Of a stretch of 64,000 nt of DNA, positions 706 through 63,844 are shown piece by piece; within the stretch, counting starts at the first letter, position 1; each line of letters opens with the position of its first letter. The DNA is taken from contig OY740814.1 of NCBI GenBank assembly GCA_963514005.1, positions 15,810,001-15,874,000 of the forward strand. The letters run 5' to 3'. The notes under the pieces are model-generated. The model saw only the letters and a list, made by a program, of their open reading frames with translations, searched no databases and was not told where the DNA came from. The stretch comes from Raja brachyura (Eukaryota). Position numbers and translations under genes: made by a program.

Positions 706-2459
706 GTAAAGGCCGGGCCGAGCGGCCAGACCGCGCCGGGCCCAGGCTCCTCGGCGTGGGGTAGAAACTGCTGGAGCCGCTGGCTCGGCCACGACCCGGG
801 CTGTCCCCCACGTTTATCCTGTGGGCGTGGGGAGCAAAGGCCCTACAGCGGGGTGTGTATCAGGGCGTGGAGGGAACAACCACCCCGGACGCTGCCTATC
901 GTCAGCCTGGGGGGAAAGTGCCAGCATTTACCCTGGAGTTATGTACACGTCATGTGTTCGCCCCGCTGGGCCAAGTTGTCCGTCCTCGCCTCCATAATTG
1001 GGTTCCGGTTTGTTTTTGGCCTCATCCTTGGTAATATTTTACTCGGTAATTTCTGGGCTAATACCCACAACAGATTTCTGTGCTCCTGGTTTCTTAGCTG
1101 GGTTTAATCGAGTGATACAGCTCGGAAAGAGGCCCTTCGGCACAATACTTCAGATGTGTCCTGCACCTCCCAATCCCGGTATCCTGTTCTTTCTATCTTT
1201 CGTTTCCCCTGAGGTAAAATTTTCCCTCATTTGTTAACACTGAATAGAAGTTAGAAACAAGGAATTGCAGATGTTGGTTTACAACACAACTGGCCATATG
1301 CTGGCACCAGCAGACCCTCACTCTGTCTCTAAATAACACTTCATACTTGTTTTGGCCTATTCCCTGCCGTGGTTTATCCCCCCCCATACTCTCTTACAGC
1401 TTTCATTTCCCGCCCCTACTATCAGTTTGAAGAAGGGTCCCGATCTGAAACCTCGCCTATCCCAGTTGTCCTAAGATGCTGTTTAACCCGCTGAGCTATT
1501 CCAGCACCCTGTGTCTTCTCCTCAATACATTATTACATTTGCTTTTCAAAAATAAACTTTATTCACAATATGTGAGGTAATATATTTGAACCATTAACTC
1601 AATATATTCTCATACGGTGTATGAAAAGTACTTGTGTTTCCTCCTCAAGCAATGTGAAATGTTTGAGGTGTTAAGTGGCACCCAACCTCTCAGTGCATGT
1701 GATAGTAAGATCCTAGATACAGACTAAACCCAAGCAATCTAGGGAAAACGTGCAAACTTTACACAGATAGCACCCGAGGTCATTATCGAACCCAAGTCTC
1801 TTGCACTGTGAGGCAGCAGCTCTACCAGCTGCACCATTGCTGTCTGTTGGATTGTGCTCGTTGGCAACATTTACTCATGAACATCATACTCTGGAGGACA
1901 CATCTTAGTAATCTTTATGGAAAAAGTTTTGTGGTTGGTTTGCTACGCTTTTCAATAAGGTTTCCCACTCTCCCGCTTCTGATACACATTTTAGTTATGG
2001 TGAACTATGTACTTTGTTGGATATTATGGTAGTGAGCTTAATGCCCTTGTGATCAGTAATGGTAAATAAATTGCTTGAATCTTTTCACTTCATAAATGTT
2101 GTTCTGGGGAATTATAGTGGAAAAGATGGTGAATGTTCAGGTTTCTCCATACACCTTTATCTGTGGCAATGTTTAATTCTGAAATGTTAAGAGAGAAAAT
2201 TTAAAATTATGTTTGTCAGTAGGCTTCAGATTGTTCCTTTTGCTATTGATTTGCACCAAAGATGTTGTTAGGAGTGTTGAATTCTATGCATTCAAGTAGA
2301 TTAATATAGCATCCCAAAAGTTGGTATGGATCATTGGGACAAAAAGCTTACTGGTAGTTTTGGGTGAGTAGGGGTTGATGGAGAGTGGACTTATTATACA
2401 CAACATCACAGATTTTGGGTCTTCTGCCTACACTGTAGTAGAGGATAATATCCCATTGT

Positions 2460-2587
2460 GTGGGAAAGAACTGCAGATACTGGTTTTAAATGAAAATAGA
2501 CACAAAATGCTGGAGTAACTCAGCGGGACAGGTAGCATCTCTGGAGGGAAGGAATGGGTGACGTTTCGGGTCGAGACCCTTCTTCAG
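2460..2587 (-). mobile_element. 128-bp Penelope-derived mini-element carrying a hammerhead motif
   Basis: Flanked by 15-bp direct repeat ataatatcccattgt (2445-2459, 2588-2602); same sequence as the 3' ends of the GIY-YIG elements at 10200-10745 and 11035-11475. Confidence 0.8.
2560..2587 (-). ncRNA. minimal hammerhead ribozyme motif (intact core)
   Basis: Minus strand ctgaaga-agggtctcgaccc-gaaac-gtc: CUGANGA, stem II, GAAA, GUC site. Confidence 0.65.
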
Positions 2588-4605
2588 ATAATATCCCATT
2601 GTTCTATTGAAGCCCTCTTGTTCTCAGTATTTTAAACATACCTGACAACTGCTTGAAATTGGTGTTCAGTTGAAACATGAATAGACACATCCTGTGTTTA
2701 AATAGGATTCTGGAAGGTCTTTAGAGGTGTTGCTCCCACTTGCCAAGTTGCTCTATCTATTGGAAAATACTTGGTTTTCATTTTCCATGCTTCCTGCACT
2801 CCTTCAAGGCCCAATTGCCCACCTGGCCCCCTGCTTCCTCATGAGAGGGAGAGGGAGGTTTCAGATCCACGCCCTTCTTCAGACTGGATGTTCTGACATT
2901 CAATCTCTAAGTCCTCTGACAACTTTGGTTACTTGGCTACGCCATGTGCAAAATGCTGATAAAATTCAGTATCACCCAATACCGAACTCCCTTTATTGTA
3001 GATCTAATGAAAACATTGGCAATGTAAAACAATATTGGCATGTAGACATATTGTAAAACTGTTCTGATAGTCCTGAAAGTAAGAACAAGGCTGAAAAGTT
3101 TTAAAATGTCAGCAAAATCAGTATGCTGAATTAACCCCTTAAGCTTCTGCTGACTATTACAAACCATTCGAGCTTTATGTCATCAGATTGATACAAGGCA
3201 TTAGGCTGACTGTTGATTTTTTTAAAATGTTATTGTTCAATGAATTTCATCTTTCAAAAGCAAGACTTGTGTATTTACTACTATCATTATGGCAATCTTG
3301 GAATTAGTATAGGAATCAATAATCACAAGCCATAAAGCAAAGTCCAGCAGATCCGGCATATTTTGAGTAAAAATGGAAAATGGTCGCAACAGTCAGCAGG
3401 ATAGACAGCAGCTGTGGAGAATGAAATGTGGCATTAATGTTTCGGGGCAATTAATTTTTTGAGAACCTGGTTTCATTTTAATTTGAGCTATGGAAGATGT
3501 GCATTATTAAATGTAATCCTTTAAAATTTGGATTGTGTAACTATATTTGTCACTAGTATTGTGAGCAAGCTGAGTTAATGAATATCATAGGAATAAGTAA
3601 TCTAATATCAAACATTAAGAGCTTCTGAAGATAGCAGTTCTCTGATTTATATATTTTATGGCGTCTTTTATTGTTAATAAAATCCCAGGAGGAATTTGGG
3701 AGAAATGGGAGCATTTCCAGATAATGCTAAACACGTGGAAATCGCAATTGCGTTGAATGGTTGAGACATAGATCCATGTAAAGGATAGCTGACGGAGGTG
3801 GAAGTAGCAAAATATCAAGTGATATACTAATGCAGAGAAGCTAGTGTAGAGCAGAGATATTAACATAGACAAATTGGGCCACATGACCAGTTTTGGTTCA
3901 AAGTGTTCTATTACTTTCTGCAGTAATACTTCTATGAAGTCATTCATCACAAAACCAGTTCATTCAGCCCAACTGATCGATGCCAAGGTCTTAAGCTAGT
4001 TCCTTTTGCCTGCTTTTGGTCTGTAACCATTGGTATTTTTCCTGTTATGTAGCTGTCCAAATTTATTTTAAATTCTTCAACACTTTATCTGCCAATTAAT
4101 GCACCACCCTCTGTGTAAAAAGGTTACCCACAGGTTCCTTTAAATCTTTTTCCTCTCACCTTGTATCTCTAGTTTTTGATTCCCCTTCATCTGGGTTGCT
4201 AGATGACAGTTTGTACGTAATGTGAAGCAGTACATAGATTTTCAAAGCCATATAAAGTGTTGTGGAAGGCATTAATTAATAATACTAGTGGGGGAATCTT
4301 TGGATAGAAAAGCCATGTTAGAAAGGCAAAGTTACAATTGTCGTCGTTGAAAACATGTCTTACAATGCTACGTACAACAGTGACCACAACTTCTTCTGAA
4401 GTGTGGATGGCCGTTGGCTTGCTAGGTGCTCATCTGCCCTTTGATAGGTCTTGTTTTTGGTCCTGTTGGGCGTCCACAGCCCCTTCCTCACCTGGAAAAC
4501 CAGGTGGGGGAGACGGTTTAGTCGCTGACTATCCGACCATGGAGCAGGTAGCATGGGATTACATGGTACCCGTGGCGGTGGGAACTCCCCCTGACCTGAC
4601 CTAAA

Positions 4606-5853: not shown

Positions 5854-6220
5854 CAGGGCTCACACTTAACTTTTTTTCTCTGATGCCAGGCAGACAACCT
5901 AGGCAGCTTTTTAGGTTGCCAAATGACAGTTTAGGTGGTCATTTAAGACGGCTTGCATGACGCGTGCGATAATGTGCTCGGATGAAGCGCGTAGTTACCA
6001 GTCGGAATTATGCTCAATGAAGCATTCACATATTATTTCTGCTTCAAATAAAGTCACAAACTAAACATATTCACCAATCATGACATGATATGTACCGCAA
6101 TGACATGCAGCAAAATTACAATACAGTATCACAACTCTTTTTAAACGTTGCAGTGAATCCAATTTCTATTATTTCTTTCCACTTCCAGACAAAAATGTGG
6201 CTGGATTATTCAGCGTATGA
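5854..6220 (+). mobile_element. possible left end of hAT-like non-autonomous DNA transposon
   Basis: Starts cagggctcacacttaac (CAGGG terminus); no matching right TIR found. Confidence 0.35.
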
Positions 6221-6225
6221 TCAAC

Positions 6226-7385
6226 CTCAGTGAGACCAAGCGCAGTCTTGGCGATCACTTCGCACAACACCTCCACTCAGTTCGCAACAACCAACTTGAT
6301 CTCCTGGTGGCTCAGTACTTCAACACCCCTCCCATTCCGAATCTGACCTTTCTGTCCTGAGCCGCCTCCATGGCCAGAGTGAGGCCCACCGCAAATTGGA
6401 GGAGCAGCACCTCATATTTCGCTTGGGTAGTTTATCCCAAGCGGTATGAACATTGGCTTCTCCAATTTCAGGTAGTCCTTGCTTTCTCCCTCCTTCCCCC
6501 CCTCATTCCCAGCTCTCCCACAGCCCCGCTGTCTCTTCCTTTCTTGTTCCTGCCCGCCCCAACATCAATCTGAAGAAGGGTCTTGAGTCAAAACGTCGCT
6601 TATTCCTTCATTCCATAGATGCTGCCTCACCCGCTGATTTTCTCCAGCTTTTTTGTCTACCAACGGGATTCCACCACTGGCCACATCTTCCCATCTCCTC
6701 CCCTGTCGGCTTTCTGCAGAGACCACTCCCTCCGTAACCCCCTGGTCAATTCGTCCCTTCCCACCCAGACCACCCCCTCTCCTGACACTTTCCTTTGCAA
6801 CCGCAGGAATTGCTACACTTGTCGCTTTATCTCCCCCCTTGACTCCATTCAAGGACCCAAGCAGTCTTTCCAGATGCGGCAGAGGTTCACCTGCACCTCC
6901 TCCAAACCCATCTATTGCATCCGCTGCTCTAGGTGTCAGCTGCTCTACATCGGTAAGACCAAAAGTAGGCTTGGCGATCGCTTCGCCCTACACCTCCGCT
7001 TGGTTCGCGATAACCAACCTGATCTCCCGGTGGCTCAGCACTTCATCTCCCCCTCCCATTCTGAATCTGACCTATATGTCCTGGGCCTCCTCCATGGCCA
7101 GAGTGAGGCCCACCGTAAATTGGAGGAGCAACACCTCATATTTTGTTTGGGCAGTTTACACCCCAGTGGTATGAATATTGACCTCCAATTTCAGGTGGTC
7201 CTTGCTTTCTCCTCCCCTTCCTAGCTCTCCCTCAGCCCACTGTCTCCGCCTCTTCCTTTCTTCTTCCTGCCTCCCCCCACCCTCACATCAGTCTGCAGAA
7301 GGGTCTTGACCTGAAACGTCGCCTATTTCCTTCGCTCCATAGATGCTACCTCACCCGCTGAGTTTCTCCAGCATTTTTGTTTACC
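6226..7385 (+). mobile_element. tandem partial Penelope-like retroelements (GIY-YIG endonuclease 3' ends)
   Basis: ORF 6619-7224 has a CNRRNCYTC Zn-knuckle, IYCIRC..C..LYIGKT..RL..RF..H, HF and GMN motifs; 6226-6660 is a second copy of the same 3' end. Confidence 0.88.
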
Positions 7386-7394
7386 CATTCACAC

Positions 7395-7611: not shown

Positions 7612-10124
7612 TATATTTTGTTTTCCAACACACAAAAAAATATAAATTGATAACTTTGGTTCCTGAAAAAAAAAAGAAACTATCCATTTTCAGTCTTAAA
7701 TCTCTGAGTGACGCTATGTCCCCCTTTACAGCTACTGTATGTTTTAATTCAGTTCAAGACTTATGGGGCAATACATTGGCCATAAAGTAGCTGCCTAAAA
7801 ATGCCAGAGACCTGGAATTGATCCTGAATATGGGTGCTGTCTGTATGGAGTTTTCTCCATTTCCCTTTGATCGAATGGGTTTTCTCCGGGTGCTCTTGTT
7901 TCCTTCCACATTCCAAATATGTGCAGGAACCTTTTTCAGACCCAACCCAAAATGTAATATTTTCCTTTTGTCCAGATATTCTGTCTCACTTGTTGAGTTA
8001 CTCCAGCTTTTTGTGTCATCTTCAGTTTAAACCAGCATCTGCAGTTCCTGCACACACAATACTATACGATAGAACTTTATTAATCCCAGGAGGGAAATTG
8101 TTTGTGTGTGGGTATATTATACACACACGCACACACATTTATTTATATAGTTATATATTCATATATAAATATACACTTTTGTTTTCTCGTTTATAACATG
8201 GTTTACAGAGTACTATGTTTACATATTCTGTTGTGCTGCTGCAAGTAAGGATTTAATTGTTCTAACTGGGACGTGAGAGAATAAAACACTCTTGACTTGC
8301 GTCGCTGATGTGTAGGATAGAACTAGTGTACGGGTGATCGGTGGTCGGCGTGGACACGGTGGGTTGAAGGGCCTGTTTCCACGCTGTATCTTTAAATTAA
8401 ACCAAAAACACTAAAGCCAGAGGAAATCTAAAGAATGGTCTCTACCCGAAACGTCACCCAATTTCTTCTATCCAGAGATGCTGGCTGCTCCATGGAGTTC
8501 CCCCGCACAATTAAAGCATGGAATAGTCTTCACACTACCATAGTTACCCAATCAGACGCCACTAAATTTAAGGTAGCTCTTTTTTCCCCAAGAACCCTTA
8601 AGTCCAAGTCAAGAGAGTTTTATTGTCATGTGTCCCAGATAGGACAATGAAATTCTTGCTTGCTGCAGCACAACAGAATATGTAAACATAATACAGAACG
8701 GGAGATAAAGGTTCAGTGTGTCTATATACCATACACACAATAAATAAACAGATAAAGTGCAATAGGCGGTTATTTTTCAGGGTTTGGTGGTGGAGGGTCC
8801 ACTCCAGTTTAAATTCCATTTGGAATATTTTTGGAGGACCAGGAAACCAAGAAGCAAGAGTTACTCCAGCTCCAGGGAGTGATTCTGCGTTGGTTTTCAG
8901 CAGTTGCGGCGAGGTGGCGACCAGACAGCAATGGCGGCCAGATCTCCCACAATGCAAAGAGAGGGAGAAAGTGCCCGGCGCCGAACAGTTGCCATGGTAG
9001 TGCGCATGTGCAGGGCGGCCGATGATGTGCAGGCCTTTGCCGTGCCGGGGGATGAGGAGCGGACGGAGAGCGGAGAACTGCCGGCCCAGACTCGGATCGC
9101 GGGCGGAGATAGAGAGGGGGGCCCGCTCAGAATTGAACGATAGGTGTCCCGGGTGCTTGCCAAGCCGGGCAAAATGGCACGGCTTTTAGGTGTCTAGAAT
9201 TATAGTGTCACTTGCAGGGATTTCAGGCAATTGTGATTTAATTGAGGGCTGAAATTAAAACTGGAAAAACTGAGTGGGCCAGGCTGCATTTGTGGGAAGA
9301 GAATCACATTTAATATTTCCGGTCAAGGTCTCTTCAGCAGAATGGATGAATCACTTGAAACATTAAATCTGTTTCTCCTTCCACAGATGCTGCTTGACCT
9401 GCAGAGCGTTTCCAACATTTTCTGTTTTAATTCCAGATTTTCAACATGGCAATTAAAGAAAAGTTATTGTCATGAAATTAATGTGATGAAAACATTAGAT
9501 CCTAAATGAATGAATTCAACATAGCCAATCCCAAGTTGGATGTTGAAATTCTGTGCATTCTTTTTGTAGTTAATATCAACCTCCCAGTGGTGGTTCAAAC
9601 ACATTGTGTAATTTTTTTGCTGATTGGGAAGCCTTTTAGTATTTCACCAGCGTATTATTTTTTGTGTAAACTAAGCCACCAAATATCCCAAGGCTGCAGT
9701 GGAACCTGATTACTGTTCTCACATAGTTTACTGCCAGAGGTCACTGAAGCCAATAGAGAAAAAACAGGATCAATCTGTTCCTTATGTTCCCAGCTCATGG
9801 CAATCCTGAGACCAGCTCATTGTCAACCAGGGTTTCAGCTGATATCTTATGATTAATATCTTAACAGTACTCCATTGATAAGGTACGAGGATTTAAATGA
9901 TTTAATGTTTCTTCATAAGATACATTTTCACAAAGATATTTACTCTTTGTAGAACTAGAGGGCACATAGCCCTAAATTAAATTTATTTTGGGGTAGTTTT
10001 GGTGTGGATCAATCTCATTTTACTTGTTACACCTTCAGTGGAACATTTGTGCCAATTTGCTACATTTATAGATGGAAGTTCTTGCATCAACAAATGGTAA
10101 TTTAAATTGTCTTTGTTTCCATAG

Positions 10125-10199: not shown

Positions 10200-10745
10200 G
10201 AGACACAAAAAGCTGTAGCAACTCAGCGGGTGAGGCAGCATCTCTGGAGAGAAGGAATGGGTGACGTTTCGGGTCGAGACCCTTCTTCAGACTAGTAAGT
10301 GGAAAGGGATGTAGATGCTGATGTAGAGATAAAGAATGAAAAGTATGCAAAAAAGTAATGATGATAAATGAAACGGGCAAATGTAGGCTGTTGGGTGAAA
10401 ACGAGAAACTGGTGTGACGGGTGGGAGAAGGATGGAGAGAGGGAATGCTGGGGTTACTTGAATTTGGAGAAATCAAAATCATACCATTGGGCTGTAAGCT
10501 GCCCAAACAAAATATGAAATGCTGTTCCTCCAATGTGCGTTTAGCCTCACACTGACAATGGAGAAGACCTAGGATAGAAAGGGCAGTGTTGGAATGGGAA
10601 GGACAATTGATGTGTTTAGCAATCGGGAGATCGGGTTGATCCAGGTGAACTGAGCAAAGGTGTTCAGCGAAACGACTGCCCAGTCTACGTTTGGTCTCGC
10701 CGGTGTACAAGAGTCCACATTTTGAACAATGGGTACAGCAGATGA
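10200..10745 (-). mobile_element. Penelope-like GIY-YIG element 3' fragment
   Basis: YTGETKRRLGSRFAEHL...EEQHFIFCLGSLQPNGM followed by hammerhead-bearing tail. Confidence 0.85.
10263..10290 (-). ncRNA. minimal hammerhead ribozyme motif (intact core)
   Basis: Identical 28-mer to 2560-2587, downstream of a GIY-YIG ORF fragment. Confidence 0.65.
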
Positions 10746-11034
10746 CCTGTGATTCATGATAGAAATAAATAAAAATATCAGAGGCATAGATAGGATAGGC
10801 AGTCAGAATCTTTTCCTAGGATGGAAAAATTAAATACTACAGGGAATAGCTTTAAGGTGATTGGGGCAAAGTTTAAAAGAGATGTGTGGGATGTTTTTTT
10901 ACAGAGGGTGGAGACGCTACAGGGCGTGGTGGTTAAAGCAGATATATTGGTGGTATTTAAAAGACTTTTCGAAAGGCATATGGATATGCAGGGGATGGAG
11001 TGATATGGGTTATGTGCAGGTAGATAGGTGATGG

Positions 11035-11475
11035 TAGACATAAAATGCTCGAGTAACTCAGCGGGACAGGCAACATGACTGGAGAGAAGGAATGGGTGAC
11101 ATTTCGGGTGGCGACCCTTCTTCAGACTGGTGTCGGGAGTGGGCGGGACAGAGATAGAATGTAGTCAGAGACAGTAAGACTGGTAGGAGAACTGGGAAGG
11201 GGGAGGGGTGGAGAGAGAGGGGCAAACAAGGGCTATTTGAAGTTGGAGAAGTCAATGTTCATACTGCAGGGGTGTAAGCTACCCAAGCGAAATATGACGT
11301 GCAGTTCCTCCAATTTGCACTGCACCTCACTCTGACAATGGAGGAGGCCCAGGACTGAAAGGTTAGATTGGGAATGGGAGGGGGAATTAAAGTGCTGAGC
11401 AACCGGGAGATCAGGTAGGTTAAGGCGGACTGAATGGAGGTGTTCAGCGACATGATCGCCGAGCCAGTGCTTGGT
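11035..11475 (-). mobile_element. Penelope-like element 3' fragment
   Basis: Reverse complement of the 6226-6660 unit; inserted in a CR1 3' fragment (10780-11550). Confidence 0.8.
11098..11125 (-). ncRNA. minimal hammerhead motif (core intact, variant stem II loop and stem III)
   Basis: ctgaagaagggtcgccacccgaaatgtc. Confidence 0.55.
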
Positions 11476-16070: not shown

Positions 16071-17523
16071 AATTAATTGGGTGCATTGTCAGAATGTGAC
16101 ATGATTGGGTTAGCAATACTATTGGTGGAAAATATTACCAAAAGCTCCTGATTATTTTATGTTTTCCTTTCCATTCCAGATTGTTGGAAGGATATATAAA
16201 CATGTTTCAGCTATGATGGCCCAAGGTTTTGTGGCATTTCTAGAGTCCATGGGAGTGGACACCAAATGTTGGTGCCTTCCGAGTTGAAAATCATGAATAA
16301 GGGTTATCTGTGCTGTTAATATTTGTGCTGAGATGGTTTAAAAAAAAAAGACTGACGAGCTTTGCTGTGAAAATGAATGAGATCAGTGGGAAAATATTTT
16401 TATTGCTTTTAAATTAAAGCTTCAATCTAGACAGACATAAGAAAATTAAAAATAGAGGTTTAAAGTTCAGGAATTGAGGCCAGGTCATTTGCAGAAGAGG
16501 TAATATGGCCTTTGAGATTTCAGTAATCTCGCAACATTTCCGTGGGAATTGTGGGGAGCAAAGTGTATTGTACAAAGCTGGCCTTGATATTTGACAGCTA
16601 TACCAAGGAATGTCTAAAAGACAGTGGAAGGAATAATGGCAGCCAGATTAGTTCTTGAAATAAACTCTCTTCTTTGTAATTCTTTAAATTCCTGAAGTGA
16701 AAATATCACCTATTTTCATGTTATTGAACATTGGTTAATTCAGAAGGACAGTGAGCCACATTGTATGACTGGCGTGTGCTCACTTTGAGCTTTGCTTTAT
16801 GTAATATTACATTCTGGGCTCTTGTGCACCACCATAAGTAGTTCTACTGCTCCAAACTGATCTCCAATTTCAATGCTCACAGGTATAAACCATCTGGGCA
16901 ATCAGTTGATGGATTAATATTGGAAACTAATGGATGACTTAAGAGTTCAGAATTTAGCTTCATACTTATATTACACTGGTGGGAATTGGCCATTAGTTCC
17001 TACTCCAGTTTACCAGAAATTTTCAAAATGTAACAATAGGTGTTACATCAATACCCACTGCAAATGAAGATTAGCCAGTTCCAATCGTACAGTTGGCTGC
17101 ATCCAGATTCCTCTTTGAGACCGTTTTTTTTATTGTGCTCTAGATTGCATGTGGGAGGATTTTTTACATTATTTTGTTATGTGTTGTGGCTTGTAGGTTT
17201 GTGCCATTATTTCCCAGTGAGGGTTGAGGTCGTGTGCGGACAGTGGCTGGGAGGAGAATTGTGCTTTAGGAACGAAGCTCTGTGGTCAATTCCAGTCCTG
17301 GAATATTACATATGGTCAGGATAAATCTGGTCTTAAAGTAAGGAACTTTTACATAAAGGGAAACTCTGAAGTTACATTTGTTTTTTGAATCAAGTGTGTA
17401 GGACATTATTTGCTTCACTATTGAGTTTGTGATCCGGGGTAAACAACTTTATTAAATAGGGTACACAAAAGGCTGGAGAAACTCAGCGGGTGCAGCAGCA
17501 TCTAAGGAGCGAGGGAGATAGGC

Positions 17524-17551
17524 GACGTTTCGGGTCGAGACCCTTCTTCAG
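17524..17551 (-). ncRNA. minimal hammerhead ribozyme motif (intact core) in a short (~95 bp) element
   Basis: Identical 28-mer to 2560-2587; possible 7-bp TSD ttaaata (17452-17458, 17554-17560). Confidence 0.62.
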
Positions 17552-17899
17552 ACTTAAATATATAGGTTGGGACCTGGGGGACTCTTTTTCATGGACTTTA
17601 CATCTCCATTGATGATTTGATCCATGGCATCTGAGCCTCCGCTTGGCTCCTTTCCTGCTTGTTGCAGTGAGTGGTGTAAAGTACCCTTGAATTGAATTGA
17701 TTGTGGCTGAAGGTGCAAGACTTCAATGAGAGTGTCAATGATTAAATCAAGTGGTGCTGATAATCTTCAATTGATCTGAAAATATTGATGAAAAGCTGTA
17801 AAGATTAACTGCTCCACTTCATCTTGTCCTGCTCTTCATGAGGGCATATTTTAGAAGCCCTTCGATTAGGTTCTGCATGTGAGGCTTGCATTAAGATAA

Positions 17900-25084: not shown

Positions 25085-25308
25085 TCAGCCATTGTATTCA
25101 GGGCCGGCATGTTCTTGGGCTTTAATTTACATTTGAAGGATAATTGCATGGTAGTCACTCTAATACCATTCAGAAACTCTACCCTGCACTGCACTTTGCT
25201 CAACTACTATTTCCAAGTAGCAGCTGTATATGTACTATTCATTCACCAAGACATAGTTGCTTTTAGTCTGAATGTAAATAAGCATTGTACTAAACACCAG
25301 TGAAATAT

Positions 25309-38506: not shown

Positions 38507-39409
38507 TACTCATAATCTCTACTTCCACTGCCCTTTGAGGAATATCATTCTTAGGCCTCAGAGAAAGGATCTCCCTTTTATTTAAAGAGGAAATATGGCT
38601 CTGATGCAGAGGTGACTTGAACTGTTAACAATTCCTTTCCTTCCACAGATGCTGCTTGATCCGCTGAGTTCCTCCAACAGTTTGCATGTTGCTTCAGATT
38701 CCAGCAATTGCAGTGTCTTGTGTCTGGAAGGATCTTACATGCTTCAATTATCCTCGCTTTGTCTTTAGACACAATCGTAGCCTGCCTGCTCAACTTTCCT
38801 CATGTCAGCCAGCCCATTCTAGCTGAATAAACTTTCTCTGAACTGCTTTTGACACTGCAACATCCCTCCTTAAATAAGATTAAAATGGTACACTGTATCC
38901 CAGATGTTGTCACACCAATGCCTCGCATAAGTGAAGCATAACCTCCTTACAGTTGGATTCATTTCCTTTCACAATTAACATTCTGTTAGCTTTCCTAGTT
39001 CCTGTTATGTCTTCATATCATCTCTATATGAATCATGCACAACGAATCTGCATTTCAGACATCTGTGATTTCTCACCATTTAAATAACTTGTTAATTTTA
39101 TATTTTAATATTCATATCAAAACAGAAAATGTCACTTTCCCACATTATATTTCATACGCTAGATCTTGCACATTTGATTAGCTTACCTTTATACCTCTGT
39201 AGCCTTCTTATGGCCTCTTCAGAACCTACTTGTCTTTAGGTTTTTTAGCAAATTTGAAAACATACCTTTGATGCCTTCACCCAAATTCTTTATACATTCT
39301 TGAAGCCCTAGTACCAGTCCTTGCGCTACAACATTCATAGCAAACAGAAAATACCACATCAAATGCCTTCTCGGAGTCTACCTAGTTATACACAAGGGTT
39401 TTACTGTAC

Positions 39410-41165: not shown

Positions 41166-42169
41166 CTGTGTGAAAAGACAATTCATAGGACAACTGTCAT
41201 GTATGTGAATTATACCCTCTGATCCAGACCTGCTCACCAAGTGTTCCATGATACTTCTAAGTGCATAAACACCTTTAAACAGCTGTAATTTCACCAACAG
41301 GTTGGGTCTATAGAAGGGTCGCGAGCCGGAACATCACCAATTCCTTCTCTCCAGAGATACTGCCTGTCCCACTGAGTTACTCCAGCGTTTTATGTATATC
41401 TTAAAACATTGCTTCTCAGTTGTTTATGTCAGAATCCATGCTAGTCGAATTGGGTGATAATTCTCTCCCTTGGGTGAAAAGGCCAAGATTAAATCAGTTT
41501 GGAGAACCCAAAGTGGCCCCTAACTATTGCAGTTATCATCACTGAACTATCTGGCATTTGATTCTAAACTCAATCCAAGACAGTCCACGTGAAAACTATT
41601 TAGACTTACCCGGCAACAGTGGGCAGCTTTACTCTGAGTGCAATACAACTCCGAGAAGAAATCCAAGATATGACAGGACCAATACCAGATTGAACTTTTT
41701 TTCAGCTTTGTGTAGAGTTCATTAAAGCCCTCTGTTGTCTCTGAGTGCAGGGTGACCAACTCCTCCCAGCTATCTGCCAATATAACTCTTGTGTGGGTAA
41801 TTTGTGACACGTTGCAGTCAGCCTTCAAGTATGCTCCCAATATATTGACCTTCTCACACCATCCTGAATGCTCTTTGTCCACTTAGGCAGGCAGTGAACA
41901 ACCTTGATATTTGTTTGATATTTTGACACTGAATGGTACCAGGAATTAGACTACGTCACCTGCAGTGTCAGGTTTGAAGATTCTAACATATTCAGCTTGT
42001 GTAGTCATGACAGCAGACTCGGGCTAAGTTACAGAGGTTTCATTTATCCTTTATTATGTGCCAGAGCCTTTTGTCAAAAAAGTACCAGTGTGAATTTATT
42101 TGCCATTGTCATCAAGCTTGAAAGATGCAAAGAGTAGAAGAATATAAGGGGGAGAGCTACGAAGACATT

Positions 42170-44346: not shown

Positions 44347-45514
44347 CTTTGGAGTAAGAAAATAAAAAATGTGACTACGGATTTTTTTTTTTACCTTCAG
44401 TGATTATTTATTTCACCAGTTCATTAATGATGTGAAATAATTTATTCAAAAAGCCAAGTGAAAATTATGGATCAGGATGCCCCAAAAAAAATTATAATTG
44501 GTGGTTTGATATTACAAAATACCTTGGCACACACGGAATTACCACTTTTCACTGAAGTGTGAAATGTAAAATACTGCTGCTTGACCTGGCTATGTTGTAC
44601 AGTAGAGAATTGGAAAAGGGAATTGTGAACAGCGGAAAGTAAAGAGGGCCAGGAACAACTCTAAGAAATGACAACATTAAGGGAGGAGATTTGGTGAAAT
44701 GCCAAACATAGAAAATAGGTGCAGGAGTAGGCAATTCTGCCCTTCGAGCCTGCACCGCCATTCAATATGATCATGGCTGATCATCCAACAAAGTATCCTG
44801 TACCTGCCTTCTCTCCATACCCCCTGATCCCTTTAGCCAAAAGGGCCAAAGGAACAAGTTAGAAAATAAAAAAAGTAGATGATGAAAATATGAAATAAAA
44901 CAGAATATGCTGGAAAAATCCAGGTCGATCAGAATCTATGGAATGAAAAACAATATCTCAGGCCTGGACTTTTCATCAGAATGAGGAAATAATAGACAAG
45001 AAGGGGTAGGATGCACAGAACAAATGGAATTCTAAGATAGAGTGAGAACAAATGAGCAAATGCAGCTGTCAGAATTAGACTATGTTTCTTTGTTTGCCAA
45101 ACCCTCCCTCGTCATCTCTGAAAGGCAAGTTATTTTTTTCCCTTTACCAATTCTGATGAAGGACCTGAAATGTTAGCTGTTCCGCTTTCCACAGATGCTA
45201 CCTAAGTTGGTGGATGTTTCTGCATTTTTTTGTATTTCTGTATTTTCTGTTTCTAAGTCAGTAAGACAGTTGGCAATCACAAGGAGGGAGAGCTTCAGAT
45301 TATGAATAATAATGTTTTGAACAGGAATCTTCTGTGCTGTAAGAAGCGATGATTCCAGTTACCTTCTCTGGAAGTTTAGAAAGCCTTGCATGTATTCTCT
45401 GGAACCTTGTTCCCTTCCACATTCACAAAGAATCATTCATAATCCTAATATTTCCTGCTGGGGAGATGATCACTAAGTGTCTTGCAGATTTATCCCTCTT
45501 CTGTTTACATTTTG

Positions 45515-48940: not shown

Positions 48941-50092
48941 TCCATGGTAGTTAATTACATTCAAGTCCAATTACCCCAACTAATTTTACTTCATTCACAC
49001 AAATGCTGTTCACTTCTTGTGTGCTGCTTAAATATGAAATGAACCAGTACTCCCAAACTTCTGCAGAGTTCTTTAAAATCAGCATACTTCTAGACATCCA
49101 AACTCTTCCACACACAGTTATTGACTATCTGTGAAACCATTCACATTGTGATAATTATTCCACGCTCAATGACAGGAACATTACCCGTTGGACAGAGTTA
49201 GTTCTTACAATGATGAACATTAATTGTCCTGACACCAGTGAGGAGAGGAAGGATTACATTGCATTTAGAATTAACAATTAACATTGGAATGATTTATGCT
49301 GTAGTCAATGCTCCCTTTACTATCTCTATCAACTTTGCATTTTAAGAGGCCTCTTAACATGACAAATAAGCACACTGTTGCAAGCTCATCGTTACATCAA
49401 TACAAACTGAAGAAAATAAACACAATGAATGGTCAAAGTCTTAAACTCTTGTTGAAGAGTCCGTGATAATGGAGAAGCTATTATAAGCTGTTAAGACATT
49501 ATTGATGGGGATAAATTGACATCAACAGGAATGAGATCATCTTCTCTTCCATTTCCACATCTTTTACCTCCACAACATTTATCTCAAACATCCCAAATGC
49601 CTAGTCAAGTCCAGCACATTGATGGCCATTTCTGAACACCATTAATCTGATTTGCGACTGGACTGTCTGCAAGCACTCTCTTCCAGTTGCTTTGCAATCG
49701 CGAAATTTGGTCCTGGACCACACTAACAGATCATTTTGTGAAATAATATTTGAAAAACACCAGGTTAGGACAAAAAGCTTGGAATTGAGTTACTAAGTTC
49801 CGACGCTTCTTTCAAAGAGTGAAAAACAAACTGCTGAAGAATCTCAACAAGTTAAGCAGCATCTATGGAGGCAAAGGGGTTGTTGTCTTTTTGTGTCAAG
49901 ACCCTGCTTCAGGGGTCTAGAATCAAGATGTCCGCCATTCCTGTCCCTCCACATTTGCTGCTAATTCTGTCGAGTTCTTCCAGTAGATTGTTCTGATTTG
50001 CAGTCTCTGCCCTTTCAAAGATCCTGGTACAAATATCGTAGGCCAAATGGCCTCCGGAAGGAGTTGTAACAATGACAAATAAACCAACTTAC

Positions 50093-50852: not shown

Positions 50853-51476
50853 CTGTAAGAGAAGAAGAAATTAAATAATGGATCGAAACACAATATGGAA
50901 TTTACTATTTTAGTTTGTTCAGTTAGTTTAGAGAATAAGCATGGAAAACGGCCCTTCCGCCCATCGAGATCATGCCGACCATCACCGATCAAGGAATGGG
51001 TGACGTTTCGGGTCTGAAGAAGGGTATCAACCCGAATCGACACCCATTCCTTCTCTCCAGAGATGCTGCTTCATCCCCTGAGTTACTCCAGCATTTTGTG
51101 TCCAGCTTCATTATAGAGGTGGTCCATATTGTTCCACTGTTGAGGTAAGATTAAGGTTGTACAGGTTGGTTCAACCTAATGGTTGTAAGAAAGTTTTTGA
51201 TCATTCCGCTTCCCAACTTTCTAGCTGATTATGTCCAATTGTATCTGTCCATAGCCTTCTTTGTTATCTATGTCCCCCAATTTTTGTGTCTTCTGAAAAC
51301 CTAGTAAACATAAGCCCTACATTCTGATCCAAGTAATTTGTACATATTATAACCAACGAAAGTTGCAGCACGATCCTGTGGTACACCATGTTACATATTT
51401 TCACTTGGAAAAGCATGCATGCACCACTATACTGTGTCTGCTATCACCCAACCAATGCCTTTCATGCCTTGTACCC

Positions 51477-53020: not shown

Positions 53021-56000
53021 CTAATTATGAGAGACAAACCTTCAATTATGCATTGCAACATAAACTAGATGTGAACATTTCAAAATTCAATTGGAATATT
53101 TACTCCCAAGTAACAAAGTTCCATTATCCTGAGGAAAGTAAGACAATAATGTGGAATAAACTTTGTGGTAACTATTTATTTTTGAGGGGTTGGTACAACC
53201 TACAAAACTGGTAAAAAGTCTTCATTTATCAATATCCTGACGACATCCAACAATGGTGGAAGGGGCTGTTTTTTCGATTAAAAATATTCATATATACTGT
53301 ACAAATTAATATCAAAATTATTTAGCTTAATGTTATTGTTATATCCGCCTGAGAAATGCTGTATTAAAAAAATACAATTAACTGCATTTGTCTAATAACA
53401 AAATGTACTGCTGAAGTTTTACACAAATTGGGCAACTGGTGGAGATGCTGGGATTGACAATGTGACTTTAACAAAGCCTCAAGGTGGCAAGAGGTCACAA
53501 AGTGCTGGAGTAACTCAATGGGTTAGGCAGCACCTCTGGACAACATGGACAGGTGATGTTTTGGGCTGGGACCCTTTGTCAGACTCCAGTTGCTTGTTTC
53601 TGCAAGGTGGGCTCACAAAAATTGTCTTTTCACTTTTTCAATGGAGGTGAAATTGAAAAAAAAAGTTAACAGAAAAGGAAACAATGCCATATGACGGTGA
53701 TAGGGTTACCCAACCATGAGAATATTAGAGATATCTATAAAAATTGTTCCAGAACTCCTTCATTGTAACAATGTGAAAATAAGTGTGATGTTCGTATAGT
53801 CATATGAGGGCAACAATTGGATAGTGTTTTGCCTGATTTTCAGGTCCAGTCTCTGTAACCGTTGTGCGGCAGTAACACAGACATCACCATCAACGGGATC
53901 GAGTATCGACCTGTGATTGAAGATTAAGGATATCTCTGCCTTGCTGACCACTACACAAGCTAAGACACCCAGTAAATTCATGTTTTGCACTGATTTAACC
54001 ATTATTGGCTGTTAAATGGCACCACTGGAGATCACAAGGGGTAATTTTTGTAAACCTACTTAAAACATCAGCAGAAGCACTTCTTGCCTCTGCATCAGAA
54101 CCATGTGCCGCTCCTGCCACACACGCACTCCATGTCTTGATCCCTCTCTAATCTCCCACTTTATCCCAGAAAAGCCTGAATCCAGCACCCAGCCAGTTAA
54201 TGTTGGTCCTCCACAGAATGGATGAATTTGTTCCTGGGCTGGGCTAATGGTTACAGCAAGCCTGCCATCTACTGACGTTGTGTGAAGATTAGCATAGCAT
54301 GGTCCTCTCCAGCATTGTTTGGGCACAGTGGTTGTTCACACTGCAACTCAACATCATTATCAATTTCTCCTGTTTAAATTACTTGCAGTTTCTGCGTAAT
54401 TATAACTTCTATTGCTAAAATAGACAAATTAGTCGAGGGTGTCCAAAAATCAGTCAGATTTGAACAGTCATGAGTACTTATGTCGAATATTACCGAGCTG
54501 CAAACACTGGCTGTTCCATTCATCAGCAGAATACAAGGAAAACGTTCTGTGGAGTTTCATTTTGTTACCAGTGATTTATTCAAAAAGTATTTCACATTTC
54601 TGAAAAGTTTCAAATGGGGACTTTTCTTCCGCTAACAAACCAAAGAAAAGATGAATCTAATCATCAAGGGTTCCCTTTCAGCAGAAACTTGGTTTGCAAG
54701 CTCTTTGTTCTTCTATAAAAGGTAGAATAAACATCTTTGAAATCATTTTAAATGATACCCTATTTGCTGAATAGAGGTTACAGTAAGCTATCACCTTCCT
54801 GTATGATTCATGACAAATAGAAAATTGCTTCCATATGATTATATTCTGGTTTATCCTGTATGAAATTAATTTCCTTGCTCAGGAATCAAAGCTTTTACAA
54901 ATAATGCAAACCATATGCCATCCTGCTCCTTCAGATGTAAACTGATCTGGGAGCTGTGTGCTGATTTCATTACCTTGCATTTTTCCATTTGATACCAGAT
55001 TTTATTCACAAGCGTAGTGAAACCATCCTAGACATTTGCTTAACGGGGAGGTACAAGGGTCATGACAGGGAGTGTTGAAAAGTGTCAGACAATTACAAAT
55101 CAAATGCTGATCGCGGATTCCCACTGAAAATGATCATGGCACAGTCTTCTAACCTGTCATTTACAAAAAGATCTGATTGAAGTCACTATCACACCTGAGG
55201 GAGCCTGAAACACATCTAACGGCAGGAGAGCAGTTTAGAAGCTCTAACACGGAGACTGTTTAGAAAAATGAGGGATATATGAGGACACCTTTTTATGGAA
55301 CAGATATATTGTGATGTATTTCACAAGGTGTTTGAAATGTGAATCAACCAAATATCCCTCAGATAAAAGGAATAATGGAGCCTTCATGGTATTAGGATTA
55401 TATACAGCTTCCTATTTATTGACAACCAAATTCTTCATTGTCTATGGTCATGACATGCCCCCAACCTTTTGTCAAAACGATTCCGTTCAGTGTGGGTGCA
55501 CAACTAGAGTCCGCAGATGGTTTGTAGCTTGCTCTGTTCTTACCCGACACAAGAGGACGCACCTGATTGTCATTTTATTTTGTAAGGAACCTAAGGCAGT
55601 ACAGGAGATTTCATGGAGAAAATGCTCTTCATTTTGACACGCAACCTGCATGTGAGCTGTTTGTAATGTAACAATTGTCGAGAGGACAAATAGCATCGAA
55701 TGTTATGGGTCATATTGTTCCTAAATGCCTCAGGCACTTAGCTTCAGCAATAAGTGGTTTGTTTTTCATGATATACTGCACAGAATGCAAAACTCTGTGT
55801 TTAGCAAGAAATTAGGAAAGCAAGTGATATTATAGCCTGTTTTACAAAAGAATTGTAGAATAATAATAAAGAACTCCCAATGCAATTGTGTTGGGGCTTA
55901 TGAAACCACACCTGAAGCAAGGTGTCCCTTTTTATTCCCTTTATCAGAAGACATGTTTGCCTTAAAGGGAATCTAATAGACCTTCCTAGGCAGAGGGAAT

Positions 56001-58073: not shown

Positions 58074-59254
58074 CTGGATGCCACGCTATGGCAAAGTTAT
58101 GATTATGCAGAAAAGATTCACAGGGATATTGCCTGGATTGGAGAGCTTGAGATCTAAGGAGAGGCTGAATCTGTTTTTGCTAAAGCAAAGGAGGCTGAGA
58201 GGTCAAATGATGAGTGAAATGTTGAACAACTCGTACTCATCAACCTCTCCTTTTCTCTCGTAGTTCATGTTGAGATTACTGTGTACAATTCCCTGATTGA
58301 TGGCAAACGCCAGTCTGCTGATAATAGTTTTGCAGATGAAGTTACAATGGATATGAAGTTGGATATGGTTCCGCCAATAGGAGTTATCTAGTCTCCAAGA
58401 CCTCACTCATGAGGCAGCTTCTGGAGACTTCAAGAACAGTGCCAGAAAGTTGCAGAATTCAGCAGCAGACATGTTACTTGTGCATCTCAAATGCCAACAT
58501 GCCAACTGAGGAACCTGAAGTGCTGAAACGAGAATGCAGTGTTGATATGGAAACTGATCTGGTAATGTGTTTCCCTGGATATAAAATTAAAACCAGCTTC
58601 TCTGACCATTTTTCTGCTGTTCTTTGTTTATTCTGGAAAGGAGCCAGGAATGAAAACCGTGTCATCACAGATGGCATGAAGCTGGGGTTATTATGAGGAT
58701 GATCTGGAAATAAGCCAGGCCATGCATCTGGTAATATTTTAACATTGTTCCTTAACCCTTGAGTGAATCCACCAGTTCAAAAGAAGTCTGAGGAAGGATC
58801 TCAACCCAAAATGGCACCTATTCCTTTTCTCCAGAGATGCTGCCTGGCCCGCTGAGTTACTCCAGCATTTTGTGTCTATCTTCAGTTTAAAAGAAAAGCC
58901 ATGCTCCCCTTAAAGGGAACTTCACTGTGTTCCATAACCCAGCTTCAGAATCCTTTGTCAAATATTGTAATATATGAGCAGAAACAGCCACGTTGTAGCT
59001 CTGTGAGCAGTTAAATATAATGTGGATCTTGCTGCATCACTGATAATCTACTCGCCCACTACTTGGCACGGAATAAATGATTTACTACACATGAAATTTG
59101 GCCGAGCTTTCCTGTCTGGTGAAAACGTTTTGAAATGCTAAATAAAACAATCTAAGTTTAACTACGCAAGTATCCTTTCTATGAAAGGCTAAGTGCCATT
59201 ATATAACAATCATTCAAAAATCCCTCACACCGACAGATAAAAACAAATAGTAGT

Positions 59255-61700: not shown

Positions 61701-61789
61701 CAGATTTCTGACCTGCCTTTCACAGCTTTAATGAATCCCCTTCATTGCTCCTATCGCAGTAACAGCCCTCAATAATCTAGTCACTGGTA

Positions 61790-62620
61790 CCCAGACGCGG
61801 CGCCGACAGACAAGAGGCTGAAGCAAAGAAGCCGAAGCCAAAGAACCGAATAGAAACGAGGCCGAAACGCGAATGAACCGAAATAGTCCGAAAATGAAAC
61901 GCCTACTAATCGAAAGGATGCGACACCTAAACGCCTACGAACCGAAAGGCTGCGTCACCTAAAAGCAAACTTATCGAATGGCAGCTCAGTCGATACGTCA
62001 CCTACCCGAAAGGCGGCAGAGCCTACAGGCCAAAGGACCGACAGCCGCTCAACAGAAAAGTCCAATAACGGACTTGGCGTTGCCGGGGGGCGGGACTTGC
62101 CAGCGATTGGTCCAGACCCCCGCGTCCATCACATCACTGTGAAGGCATGAACATTGCCCCAACCTTCCGCTCCACCCGACCCGCAGCCCGCGGAGGGTGG
62201 CCGTGGGAGAGTGGGGGCTGTCCCGAGCGATGCACACCTTCGGCCGCGTTCAATTTGGTGCTTGGGTTCAGATTGCCCAGTCACCTATGGCTCGTGTGGG
62301 AAAATGAACCCCTCGGTCCCGTCTCCCCCTTTATCTCTCTCTATCTCCCTTCTCTCTCCTCCTCTCTCCCCCCCCCCCGCTCTCTCTTCCCACCCTCCCC
62401 ACCCCACTCTCTCTCCCTTCTCTCTCCCCCTTTTCTCTCTCCTCCGTCTCCACCCACGGGAGCGTCCCAGTCACTGACCGTGATGCACCGCCATCGGACC
62501 CCAACCTCCACACCAGGGTGATTCCCCCCCGACTCCCGGACTTTGACACCCACACCAGGGTGATTCACCCCGGCCGCGGGGACAGACGGTTTATTTATTA
62601 CCGTCTCGCAAGCTCCCACG
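61790..62620. repeat. CpG-rich unclassified element with 16-bp phased repeat array, CCAAT/GC-box cluster and C/T tract
   Basis: Abrupt CpG enrichment; YCKAH-like motif every 16 bp from 61846 to 62042. Confidence 0.65.
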
Positions 62621-63844
62621 CACAATACAGGCAGCATCTCTGGAGAGAAGGAATTGGTGACGTTTCGTGCAGAGGCGTTCTTGGGTAAGGGGAATCAAGA
62701 ATTAGAGGGCATAGGTTTAAGGTGAGAGGAGGAAGATTTATTTAATAGATACCTTATTGCAACTTTTTCACACAGAGTATAGGGGGTATATGGAACGAGT
62801 TGCCAGAAGTAGTTGCGACAGGTATAATAATAACATTTAAAAGATATTTCGGCAGGTGCATGGATAGGAAATGGAACATATTAGTGGGAGAGGCAAAACA
62901 TTGGTAAATGGGACCATCTTAAATGGGCTATCTTGGTTGGCATGGATGAGTCGGGCTGAAGAACGTGTTTTTTTGTTGTAAGACTATGATTGACAAAGGG
63001 AAACTATCTGAAAACATCCTGAATCCCTGTAAATTATTCTAACTTTCCTTCCAAGTGACAGGGTCCAATGAGTAAAAAAAAGGGCAGATGGAGACTTAAC
63101 ATCATTTGAAAACAATTATAGTAACACTGAGTTTATTACATTGCAAGTTATTGGAAAAGCCCTAAATTGCTAGACAGATTCCATTATTTCAGTAATTACA
63201 ATCCCCAGGAAAATTGATTTTTGCCTCTAATTTAATCTGACTGTCAAACATCATTACAGTTTTAAAATGTTGACTCCAAAACATTGAAGTTACAAAGATC
63301 CCCATTTAATAAACATGGAACTAAAAGTCTGCAGGTGGAACTCAGCAGATCAGGCAGCATCTGTTGAGTAAAATGGACATTCGCCATTTTGGGTTGAGAT
63401 CCCTCCCCTTCCAGCATCTGCGGTTGTTTGTGCCTTCATTTAACGAGGCTGCATGAGTAAAACTAACCTTTACGCATGGTTTTCAGAAGTGGAAAATAAT
63501 AAATGATCATACTGATTTGATTGGGAGACTAATAATCACCACCAAGCAGACAAGGAAATCAAGTACAGATAATTAAATAAAAACTAGTATTGGTTAAAGG
63601 TGACCATGCAACCACTGCATTGTTGCCAATACCCACCTGCTTCACTAATGTTCTTTGGGGTAGGAAATCGCTCTGCCCTCAATCTGTGGTCTGATCCTCA
63701 CCTCAATGCCACACCAATATAGGTCATTCGTAACTACCCGCTGAGATGGCCCAGCAATCGATTCAGTTATTCAATCTTTAGAGATTTGGCAGCCTATTCA
63801 ATCACAGGTGCAAATTGCTGCTTTGAAGATAGGATTATGGATTT

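What the first reader, a model, noticed from the sequence alone, without database searches (positions are those of the whole stretch)
1427..63405. About 20 dispersed minimal hammerhead-ribozyme motifs carried by Penelope-derived short elements
Seen: a recurrent 28-mer CTGAAGA-AGGGTCTCGACCC-GAAAC-GTC. Exact copies lie at 2560, 10263 and 17524. Variants or partial copies lie at about 1427, 6570, 7293, 8428, 11098, 25412, 29580, 29633, 30890, 31738, 32083, 38099, 41308, 45153, 51002/51014, 53555, 58788, 62659 and 63385. Where an ORF is attached (6226-7385, 10200-10745, 11035-11475), the motif sits just 3' of a GIY-YIG ORF. Established: CUGANGA...GAAA...UH is the hammerhead core, and Penelope-like elements carry minimal type I hammerheads thought to act as dimers. 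Inference: stem III here is only the palindrome ACGU (GAA-ACGU-C), so a monomer cannot fold but two RNAs could pair to give two cores cleaving after GUC. Stem I is only about 2 bp. Roughly one copy per 3 kb would make this a very abundant ribozyme-like family if the density holds genome-wide.
Basis: partly seen in the sequence, partly recalled or inferred. Interest (0 to 1): 0.72.

Follow-up and report, generated by a model that had tools for sequence, protein, structure and literature searches.

The report
Penelope retroelement ends with minimal hammerheads
These repeats are short, mostly decayed end-pieces of a Penelope-type jumping gene in what is likely a ray or skate genome, and they carry the outline of a tiny self-cutting RNA already described for such elements; what stands out is their number (an estimated one million) and that the copies were likely made from RNA that had not cut itself.

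Summary
The 28-mer is exact at 2560, 10263 and 17524 (all minus strand), and every listed variant marks a ~95-nt repeat unit. The genome holds 50,608 exact copies, 97,582 copies with an intact minimal-hammerhead pattern and an estimated one million units. The unit is the pseudo-LTR of a Neptune-type Penelope-like element: an unbroken 1,203-codon RT+GIY-YIG frame elsewhere in the genome is flanked by two units with this exact 28-mer. The motif matches the minimal type I hammerhead described in 2014, so the class is known. Against a working ribozyme family: only 3 of 32 window units keep core and palindrome; catalytic G12 decays like other CpG bases; folding predicts the core is sequestered; 47 of 85 young copies start within 6 nt of a point 3 nt before the core, only 1 at the cut site; 42% of units sit in head-to-head pairs. 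The short units are likely minimal target-primed insertions copied from uncut RNA. Cleavage was not tested. The scan reported this family many times before, with the same reading.

The parts
2457..2588 (-). Solo pLTR unit with tail; exact 28-mer 2587-2560, core and ACGT palindrome intact; predicted cut between 2560 and 2559
10200..10293 (-). pLTR unit ending a 5'-truncated element; exact 28-mer 10290-10263, intact
10480..10752 (-). GIY-YIG fragment upstream of the 10263 unit
17462..17554 (-). Solo pLTR unit of the youngest subfamily (same type as the units flanking intact ORFs in L258-L271); exact 28-mer 17551-17524, intact
11034..11128 (-). pLTR unit; core intact, stem III palindrome lost (ATGT)
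11251..11475 (-). GIY-YIG fragment upstream of the 11098 unit
6218..6661 (+). First copy of a partial tandem: GIY-YIG C-terminal part, 3' UTR, unit 6567-6660 with G12 changed to A
6662..7385 (+). Second copy of the partial tandem: CX4CXXC linker, GIY-YIG (open frame 6619-7224), 3' UTR, unit 7290-7384 with A6 changed to C
1424..1516 (+). Decayed unit with pyrimidine-rich UTR upstream
7941..8058 (+). 5'-truncated decayed unit with tail
8425..8503 (+). Decayed unit, core changed
9257..9427 (.). Old head-to-head pair (9341 minus, 9376 plus)
25296..25514 (.). Head-to-head pair (tail arm on minus, short arm on plus) between two copies of a 13-bp target-site duplication (25296-25308, 25502-25514), about 110 nt after the SPG11 stop codon; both cores damaged; predicted -122.6 kcal/mol hairpin
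29489..29719 (.). Old head-to-head pair (29611 minus with tail, 29630 plus)
30804..30920 (-). Decayed unit with tail
31704..31764 (-). Old variant unit (CTGATGC-type core)
32083..32151 (+). Old decayed unit
38101..38190 (+). Decayed unit lacking the start of the core
38601..38719 (+).
41304..41399 (+). Decayed unit, core changed
45151..45204 (+). Old unit, stem II partly deleted
49796..49990 (.).
50990..51104 (.). Head-to-head pair: short minus arm 51014-50990, plus arm 51011-51104 with stem III changed
53495..53585 (-). Decayed unit
58784..58879 (+). Decayed unit, G12 and stem III changed
62627..62675 (-). Partial unit lacking the 5' core
63323..63406 (-). Old partial unit

Best explanation
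The repeat is the pseudo-LTR of a Neptune-type Penelope-like retrotransposon and carries that class's minimal hammerhead motif; the dispersed short copies are likely minimal target-primed insertions, reverse-transcribed from uncut RNA and left to decay. Steps: (shown) in intact elements the unit lies just before the ORF start and about 250 nt after its stop. (shown) Copies end at two fixed 3' points, about +97 and +132, counting +1 as the A three bases before CUGA; (inferred from Anolis Poseidon) these are two internal reverse-transcription start sites. (shown) Most young short copies begin at about +1; (inferred) +1 is the 5' end of the element RNA, made from an internal promoter, so priming in the 5' pLTR runs off the RNA after 95-135 nt. 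(shown) 42% of units lie in head-to-head pairs, mostly one tailed and one untailed arm of one subfamily, with varied junctions; (inferred) both nicked strands are extended or the first cDNA is copied back. (predicted) In naked RNA the core pairs with downstream sequence, so cleavage would need a partner copy and the element's protein, and it matters, if at all, only in source elements.
For: Intact element L261 (G000:C30): unit, 1,203-codon open frame with YIDD, CX4CXXC and GIY motifs, second unit, exact 28-mer in both; RVT_1 E=3.8e-4 and GIY-YIG E=1.8e-3, both under Pfam's cut-offs; 87 homologs, most with RT and HTH domains and some with GIY-YIG annotated, 52 of the 53 with a recognisable GIY motif carrying the CX2-5CxxC linker. 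Ends of 85 young arms: 47 start at -6..+6 (mode +1, 13 copies), 1 at +32; 3' ends 50 at +92..+100 and 25 at +127..+135. TSDs of 7-18 bp in 23 of 56 solo copies vs 2.1 in shuffled pairings. Pairs: 132 of 311 units head-to-head, 5 tail-to-tail pairs; 44 of 56 classifiable pairs have one tailed arm, p=1e-5; arm identity 85% (74 pairs) vs 75% between unrelated arms; only 1,595 loci have the perfect junction. G12 kept in 37 of 54 copies vs 81 of 106 for a downstream CpG. P(stem II) <=0.03 in six monomer constructs; dimer fold -12.7 vs -21.1 kcal/mol for the best dimer; +26.3 kcal/mol in a natural 239-nt tandem. Literature: PMC4209133 (min-HHR), PMC11167929 (tail = two RT starts, both strands extended, HHR protein-assisted and dispensable in vitro), PMC8557442 (inverted copy, one-sided tail), PMC2377424 (internal promoter in the pLTR).
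Against: No transcription start was mapped; no raw RNA reads were on hand. The initiator-like YYANWYY at +1 is a recalled consensus, short, and easily met in a pyrimidine-rich UTR; the ACGT does not sit at the spacing I recall for the Drosophila RGACGTGY element. An extra G at the 5' junction is weak (8 of 14 non-C at +1, p=0.03, but also 4 of 5 at +6). Non-CpG core positions are more conserved than downstream ones (518/549 vs 1984/2205, p=0.001), so constraint exists at some level, though the difference comes mainly from A positions and T shows none. One young copy does start exactly at +32 (L326). Nearest-neighbour folding ignores Mg2+, tertiary contacts and proteins. Neptune is assigned by the linker motif only, which Nematis shares; no tree was built. 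The young sample comes from the first 3.9 Mb of one contig.
Confidence: 0.78

Rival explanations
1. The short units are an independent non-autonomous family (SINE- or retrozyme-like): they are transcribed on their own, cut by dimeric hammerheads, and reinserted by the Penelope enzymes.
For: An estimated million copies; sharp ends; short direct tandems with two intact cores exist (239-nt period, L273); tandem non-LTR retrozymes derived from PLE pLTRs are reported, including in one chondrichthyan (bioRxiv 10.64898/2026.07.22.740005, parts 1-3). A unit that carries its own internal promoter could be re-transcribed.
Against: 5' ends avoid the cut site (1 of 85; 3 of 311 at the matching profile column); only 18 same-strand neighbours within 250 nt among 311 units; short copies carry the same subfamily marks as full-length elements; junctions of pairs are heterogeneous; the L273 tandem includes ORF-start sequence and one 14-bp TSD, i.e. 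one compound insertion.
Confidence: 0.1
2. The 28-mer is conserved as DNA or protein-binding signal (promoter, RT or endonuclease site) and the hammerhead match is vestigial; it never cuts, even in source elements.
For: Helix I is 2 bp; active folds are predicted to be unstable; downstream blocks are nearly as invariant across four subfamilies (46 of 62 positions vs 24 of 28 in the motif); no two-sided compensatory change was established; an older variant has C at position 9; in Anolis, HHR mutants did not affect insertion in vitro (PMC11167929).
Against: Subfamily differences fall where a hammerhead tolerates them: loop II (YYCG), U-A to U-G in stem II, GUC to GUU at the cut site, U-A to U-G in helix I, N7, while the UTR right upstream differs between subfamilies. 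The same architecture cleaves slowly as dimers or with protein in other PLEs (PMC4209133; PMC11167929).
Confidence: 0.2
3. The roughly 98,000 intact cores are active in cells, pairing in trans between transcripts and cutting host RNAs.
For: 97,582 intact patterns; the unit is present in thousands of contigs of runs guessed to be RNA; the four window copies with an intact core and stem II are all on the minus strand, opposite to an eIF3j-like gene, as avoidance of sense copies would predict.
Against: n=4, and the gene's extent was not mapped; a 4-bp intermolecular helix and a competing hairpin make trans dimers unlikely; no sparing or excess loss of G12 relative to other CpG sites; many copies are locked in hairpins by an inverted partner.
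Confidence: 0.06

Closest known systems
Minimal type I hammerheads (min-HHR) of metazoan PLE pseudo-LTRs (Cervera and De la Pena 2014, PMC4209133)
   Same: CUGANGA core, extra base between 9 and 10.1, G10.1-C11.1, palindromic 15.2-16.2 without loop 3, position in the pLTR, mostly single dispersed copies, some opposite-strand pairs, need for dimers
   Different: Helix II is 4 bp with a YYCG loop (7-8 bp in Schistosoma); helix I is 2 bp (4-5 bp there, 2 bp in D. virilis); 97,582 intact patterns vs about 4,000 in coelacanth and 9,000 in Xenopus (different descriptors, not strictly comparable); one dominant sequence rather than many heterogeneous families; no cartilaginous fish named in the parts I read
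Neptune/Nematis EN+ Penelope-like elements (PMC8557442, passages)
   Same: Single RT + C-terminal GIY-YIG ORF, CX2-5CxxC linker, partial tandems, inverted 5'-truncated copy, 30-40-nt tail on one end
   Different: Here the commonest product is the smallest possible version of that layout, at very high copy number, with a sharp 5' end point just before the ribozyme
Anolis Poseidon element PAc (PMC11167929, parts 1-2)
   Same: Two 3' end points separated by a tail, HHR in the pLTR region, no sign of copies or reads starting at the cut site
   Different: Other clade; in PAc the ORF starts inside stem II, here the first Met lies about 165 nt downstream of +1; no biochemistry here
Non-LTR retrozymes (bioRxiv 10.64898/2026.07.22.740005, parts 1-3; PMC7229834, listing only)
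   Same: Derived from PLE pLTRs, type I HHR, present in vertebrates including one chondrichthyan
   Different: Retrozymes are defined by direct tandem repeats; these units are mostly solo or inverted, and tandems are rare

Membership tests
min-HHR of PLEs | Conserved core CUGANGA...GAAA...UH | tested here: met
   Exact in intact elements; 97,582 genome matches, control 0; intact with palindrome in only 3 of 32 window units
min-HHR of PLEs | Extra base between positions 9 and 10.1 and G10.1-C11.1 pair | tested here: met
   Seen directly in the 28-mer; all four subfamily majorities
min-HHR of PLEs | Palindromic 15.2-16.2, no loop 3 | tested here: met
   ACGT in the three younger subfamily majorities; decayed to ACAT in the oldest
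min-HHR of PLEs | Helix II supported by compensatory change | tested here: inconclusive
   Only one-sided U-A to U-G change (7 of first 100); A10.1 with U11.1 in 9 of 14 vs G10.1 with U in 35 of 86, counted by hand from the first 100 of 1,619
min-HHR of PLEs | Helix I of 4-5 bp | tested here: not met
   2 bp only in all subfamilies, predicted probability 0; a 2-bp helix I is described for D. virilis (PMC4209133)
min-HHR of PLEs | Location in the pLTR of a PLE | tested here: met
   L258-L261, L126
min-HHR of PLEs | Self-cleavage as dimer or with protein | not testable with these tools
   Folding only; Rfam gave no hammerhead hit up to E=1
Neptune/Nematis EN+ PLE | Single ORF with RT and C-terminal GIY-YIG | tested here: met
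   1,203-codon frame; Pfam scores under the curated cut-offs
Neptune/Nematis EN+ PLE | CX2-5CxxC linker before GIY-YIG | tested here: met
   CNRRNCYTC in the window ORF; 52 of 53 homologs with a GIY motif
Neptune/Nematis EN+ PLE | pLTR, tandems, inverted 5' copy, one-sided tail | tested here: met
Neptune clade proper | RT phylogeny groups with named Neptune elements | not tested
   No named reference sequences were on hand; homologs carry no clade names
Non-LTR retrozyme | Direct tandem repeats with an HHR in each unit | tested here: not met
   18 same-strand neighbours within 250 nt among 311 units; rare exceptions such as L273
Non-LTR retrozyme | Monomer ends defined by ribozyme cleavage; circular RNA | tested here: not met
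   DNA 5' ends at the cut site in 1 of 85; circular RNA not testable

The most novel reading that the evidence does not exclude
This genome carries about 98,000 intact minimal hammerheads, the largest self-cleaving RNA family I found reported for a vertebrate, and when the element's protein is expressed it unmasks the core so that copies embedded in host transcripts pair in trans and cut them.
Probability: 0.06. Interest if true: 0.75.

Novelty: new member of a known kind. Interest (0 to 1): 0.3.

Why it matters
The ribozyme class and its link to Penelope-like elements are known since 2014. What this family adds is scale and clean end points: about a million insertions and unbroken source elements give a large natural record of how these poorly understood elements copy themselves. 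It suggests that the RNA starts three bases before the hammerhead core, that it is copied uncut, and that the two arms of an inverted insertion start at different sites. That makes the open question of what the PLE hammerhead is for directly testable in one family. An estimated 220,000 inverted pairs would also be a large source of hairpin RNA, one of them just after the SPG11 stop codon.

Tried and rejected
Rfam scan of the window: no hammerhead family up to E=1, one chance plastid hit on the 25.4-kb hairpin. Sequencing runs: no RNA holder listed, only Logan contigs with RNA guessed, so cleavage ends, starts and strand could not be read; searches show presence only. Walking upstream from degraded copies found RT and the 5' junction but no unbroken ORF among those loci; a distant homolog as query did. 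Covariation at 10.1-11.1 was not established. The first conservation test (core 96% vs 90%) is biased by alignment edges and was redone on 55 copies with upstream UTR. In one search, 10 ends at -142..-213 are probably failures to extend through a C-tract and 8 arms ran to the edge of the fetched stretch; they were kept in the 85 and counted as long. L216-L218 and L222/L223 may be duplicates, so pair statistics use only the 80 sample stretches and the window. Cap-derived G and DPE ideas are weak. Strand bias against host genes was not tested beyond four window copies. Lunse et al. 2017 is not held; I saw only its title and its summary in the review PMC6765202, so it may list this motif. Supplement file 1 of PMC4209133 could not be searched; file 2 has no shark or skate entry. 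bioRxiv supplements were not opened and may name the chondrichthyan families. Literature searches for Penelope with skate, shark or cartilaginous fish gave no paper on this family (listings only).


Full report
Observation. The 28-mer is exact three times in the window, all on the minus strand, with 6 matches at up to 3 mismatches and none in 100 shuffles. It is the 5' part of a unit of about 95 nt, or about 135 nt with a tail. Only 3 of 32 units aligned with the extended profile keep both the core and the ACGT palindrome. Rfam has no hammerhead match here.

Host and setting. The minus strand encodes spatacsin (SPG11) exons from 56523 to 25627; the best hits are a sawfish (81%) and a shark (71%), so the host is an elasmobranch, probably a ray or skate (inference). 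An eIF3j-like gene starts near 443 on the plus strand; the Pfam support is weak (E=0.32) and the EIF3J-SPG11 neighbourhood is recalled from human.

Abundance. The genome (2.70 Gb) holds 50,608 exact copies and 97,582 matches to an intact minimal-hammerhead pattern, both with control 0. In 80 stretches of 10 kb that I chose at round coordinates on large contigs there are 311 units, 181 covering the motif, 32 passing a strict descriptor and 10 exact; this scales to 1.05 million units (bootstrap 0.87-1.23 million). The unit is also in contigs of runs under five organism labels, which shows presence only.

Source element. Upstream of the GIY-YIG region, other loci continue into an RT with a YIDD motif, and in L126 the unit plus tail runs straight into the element body. 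A search with a distant homolog found unbroken frames up to 1,203 codons. In L261 the order is unit, 1,203-codon frame (first Met at codon 13; RT, CX4CXXC, GIY-YIG), about 250 nt, unit, with the exact 28-mer in both units; L258-L259 hold four repeats at a 3,965-nt period with five units, the first three identical (recent duplication or assembly effect). The CX2-5CxxC linker marks Neptune and Nematis (PMC8557442, passages); the window ORF and 52 of 53 homologs with a GIY motif have it. No tree was built. The unit is therefore the pLTR. Four subfamilies are seen, 8.5-15.6% diverged from their own majority, with different UTRs right upstream of an almost fixed motif.

The ribozyme motif. Cervera and De la Pena (PMC4209133; parts 1-2 of 4 read) describe this architecture: no loop 3, palindromic 15.2-16.2, an extra base before G10.1-C11.1, location in pLTRs, thousands of dispersed singles, low activity only as dimers. 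Here stem II is 4 bp with a YYCG loop, and subfamily changes are tolerated ones: U-A to U-G in stem II with GUU at the cut site (7 of the first 100), U-A to U-G in the 2-bp helix I, and N7. A two-sided change was not established. I read this as constraint on source elements and neutral decay of copies (inference).

Folding (prediction only). In six monomer constructs stem II has probability 0.03 or less; in most of them the 5' strand of stem II pairs with the bases just after the cut site. The two-core dimer scores -12.7 kcal/mol (-6.1 with helix I) against -21.1 for the best dimer and -16.6 for two monomers. In a natural tandem with two intact cores 239 nt apart the active fold costs 26.3 kcal/mol, and with the tail present the tail pairs with the core. 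The window's own tandem (6570, 7293) has G12 and A6 changed. This fits the Anolis element, whose hammerhead cut only with protein and was dispensable for insertion in vitro (PMC11167929, parts 1-2 of 4), and the Xenopus dimers of which 1 of 9 cleaved (bioRxiv 10.64898/2026.07.22.740005, parts 1-3 of 5).

How the copies arise. For the youngest subfamily (54,436 matches) I fetched 90 stretches around the first 100 matches, and 85 arms were scored against L258. 47 start within -6..+6 of the A three bases before CUGA (mode +1), 9 at +7..+28, 1 at the cut site (+32), 2 further in, 26 further upstream. 3' ends cluster at +92..+100 (50) and +127..+135 (25). Solo copies have 7-18-bp target-site duplications (23 of 56 vs 2.1 by chance). 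In the 800-kb sample 132 of 311 units form 66 head-to-head pairs against 5 tail-to-tail. Of 73 pairs, 56 could be classed and 44 have one tailed and one untailed arm (p=1e-5); arms are of one subfamily in nearly all pairs by eye and 85% alike against 75%; junctions vary, and only 1,595 loci have the perfect one. This is the known inverted-copy-plus-tail layout (PMC8557442) at its smallest. The model: RT primes at one of two internal sites in the pLTR and runs to the RNA 5' end at +1; a second arm comes from priming on the other strand or from copying back. That +1 is the transcription start is inferred: D. virilis Penelope has an internal Inr/DPE promoter in its pLTR (PMC2377424, passages), the bases at +1 fit a recalled initiator consensus, and a junction G is weakly enriched. 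It would also explain why helix I has only 2 bp. Fold-back at the short TCAG-N-CTGA palindrome could explain pairs but not solo copies, nor the youngest subfamily, where the upstream bases are CC.

Comparison and novelty. It works like, and by sequence and position is a member of, the PLE minimal hammerheads; activity is untested and helix I is shorter than the usual 4-5 bp. It is not a tandem retrozyme. My searches found no paper on this family in cartilaginous fish, but Lunse et al. 2017 could not be read and the 2026 preprint covers one chondrichthyan. The scan's own notes, opened after my analysis (by sequence gave nothing), report the same family and reading many times in this and related genomes; they are not independent evidence. 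One of them reports a pair starting at the cut site, which I did not test.

Verdict. Real, abundant, known in kind. Interest 0.3, for the scale and the mechanistic clue, not for a new ribozyme system.

Noticed in passing
window 5850 to at least 9040: A multi-copy composite element, about 85-90% identical between loci, with a shared left end at 5850-5864 in 21 of the 29 other loci examined. It carries the nested Penelope tandem, SINE-like pieces and further units, so two hammerhead units 723 nt apart were amplified as passengers. Terminal repeats and TSD were not checked.
   Followed up: partly
window 25296-25514: Inverted pair with a 13-bp TSD about 110 nt after the SPG11 stop codon (TAA at 25626-25624), with no AATAAA or ATTAAA between them by eye; predicted hairpin -122.6 kcal/mol. 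A contig of run X10 covers 25496-25804 and leaves at the exon edge. A candidate for A-to-I editing or 3' UTR regulation.
   Followed up: partly
window 2560, 10263, 11098, 17524: The four copies with intact core and stem II are all on the minus strand, antisense to the eIF3j-like gene; too few to test.
   Followed up: no
window 31704-31764, 49824-49912; G000 matches: An older variant with C in place of A9 (CTGATGC/CTGAAGC before AGGG) recurs, about 15 of the first 100 matches; either an inactive lineage or a shifted register of the extra base.
   Followed up: partly
L273:4908-5377 (G000:C1): One compound insertion within a 14-bp TSD: short inverted arm, unit plus about 100 nt of ORF start, then a second unit with tail; suggests a template jump at +1 and a further priming site inside the ORF.
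   Followed up: partly
L258-L259 (G000:C18:46.36-46.38 Mb): Four-copy tandem array of the element, period 3,965 nt, first three repeats identical; open frames of 1,033 codons lacking the N-terminus seen in L260-L262.
   Followed up: partly
L126:545-560 region; L258 about +165: The ORF start overlaps a splice-donor-like AAG/GTATG; Penelope elements are known to carry introns near the 5' end. Not tested.
   Followed up: no
window 24900-25339: A 3.4-kb contig of run X10 with higher depth than the SPG11 contig ends in the hairpin from the other side; it may be a long 3' UTR of either neighbouring gene.
   Followed up: no
window 17978-18289, 45678-46019, 59207-59560: Fragments that look like other LINE-type reverse transcriptases (by eye); no Pfam match at E<=0.1.
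   Followed up: no
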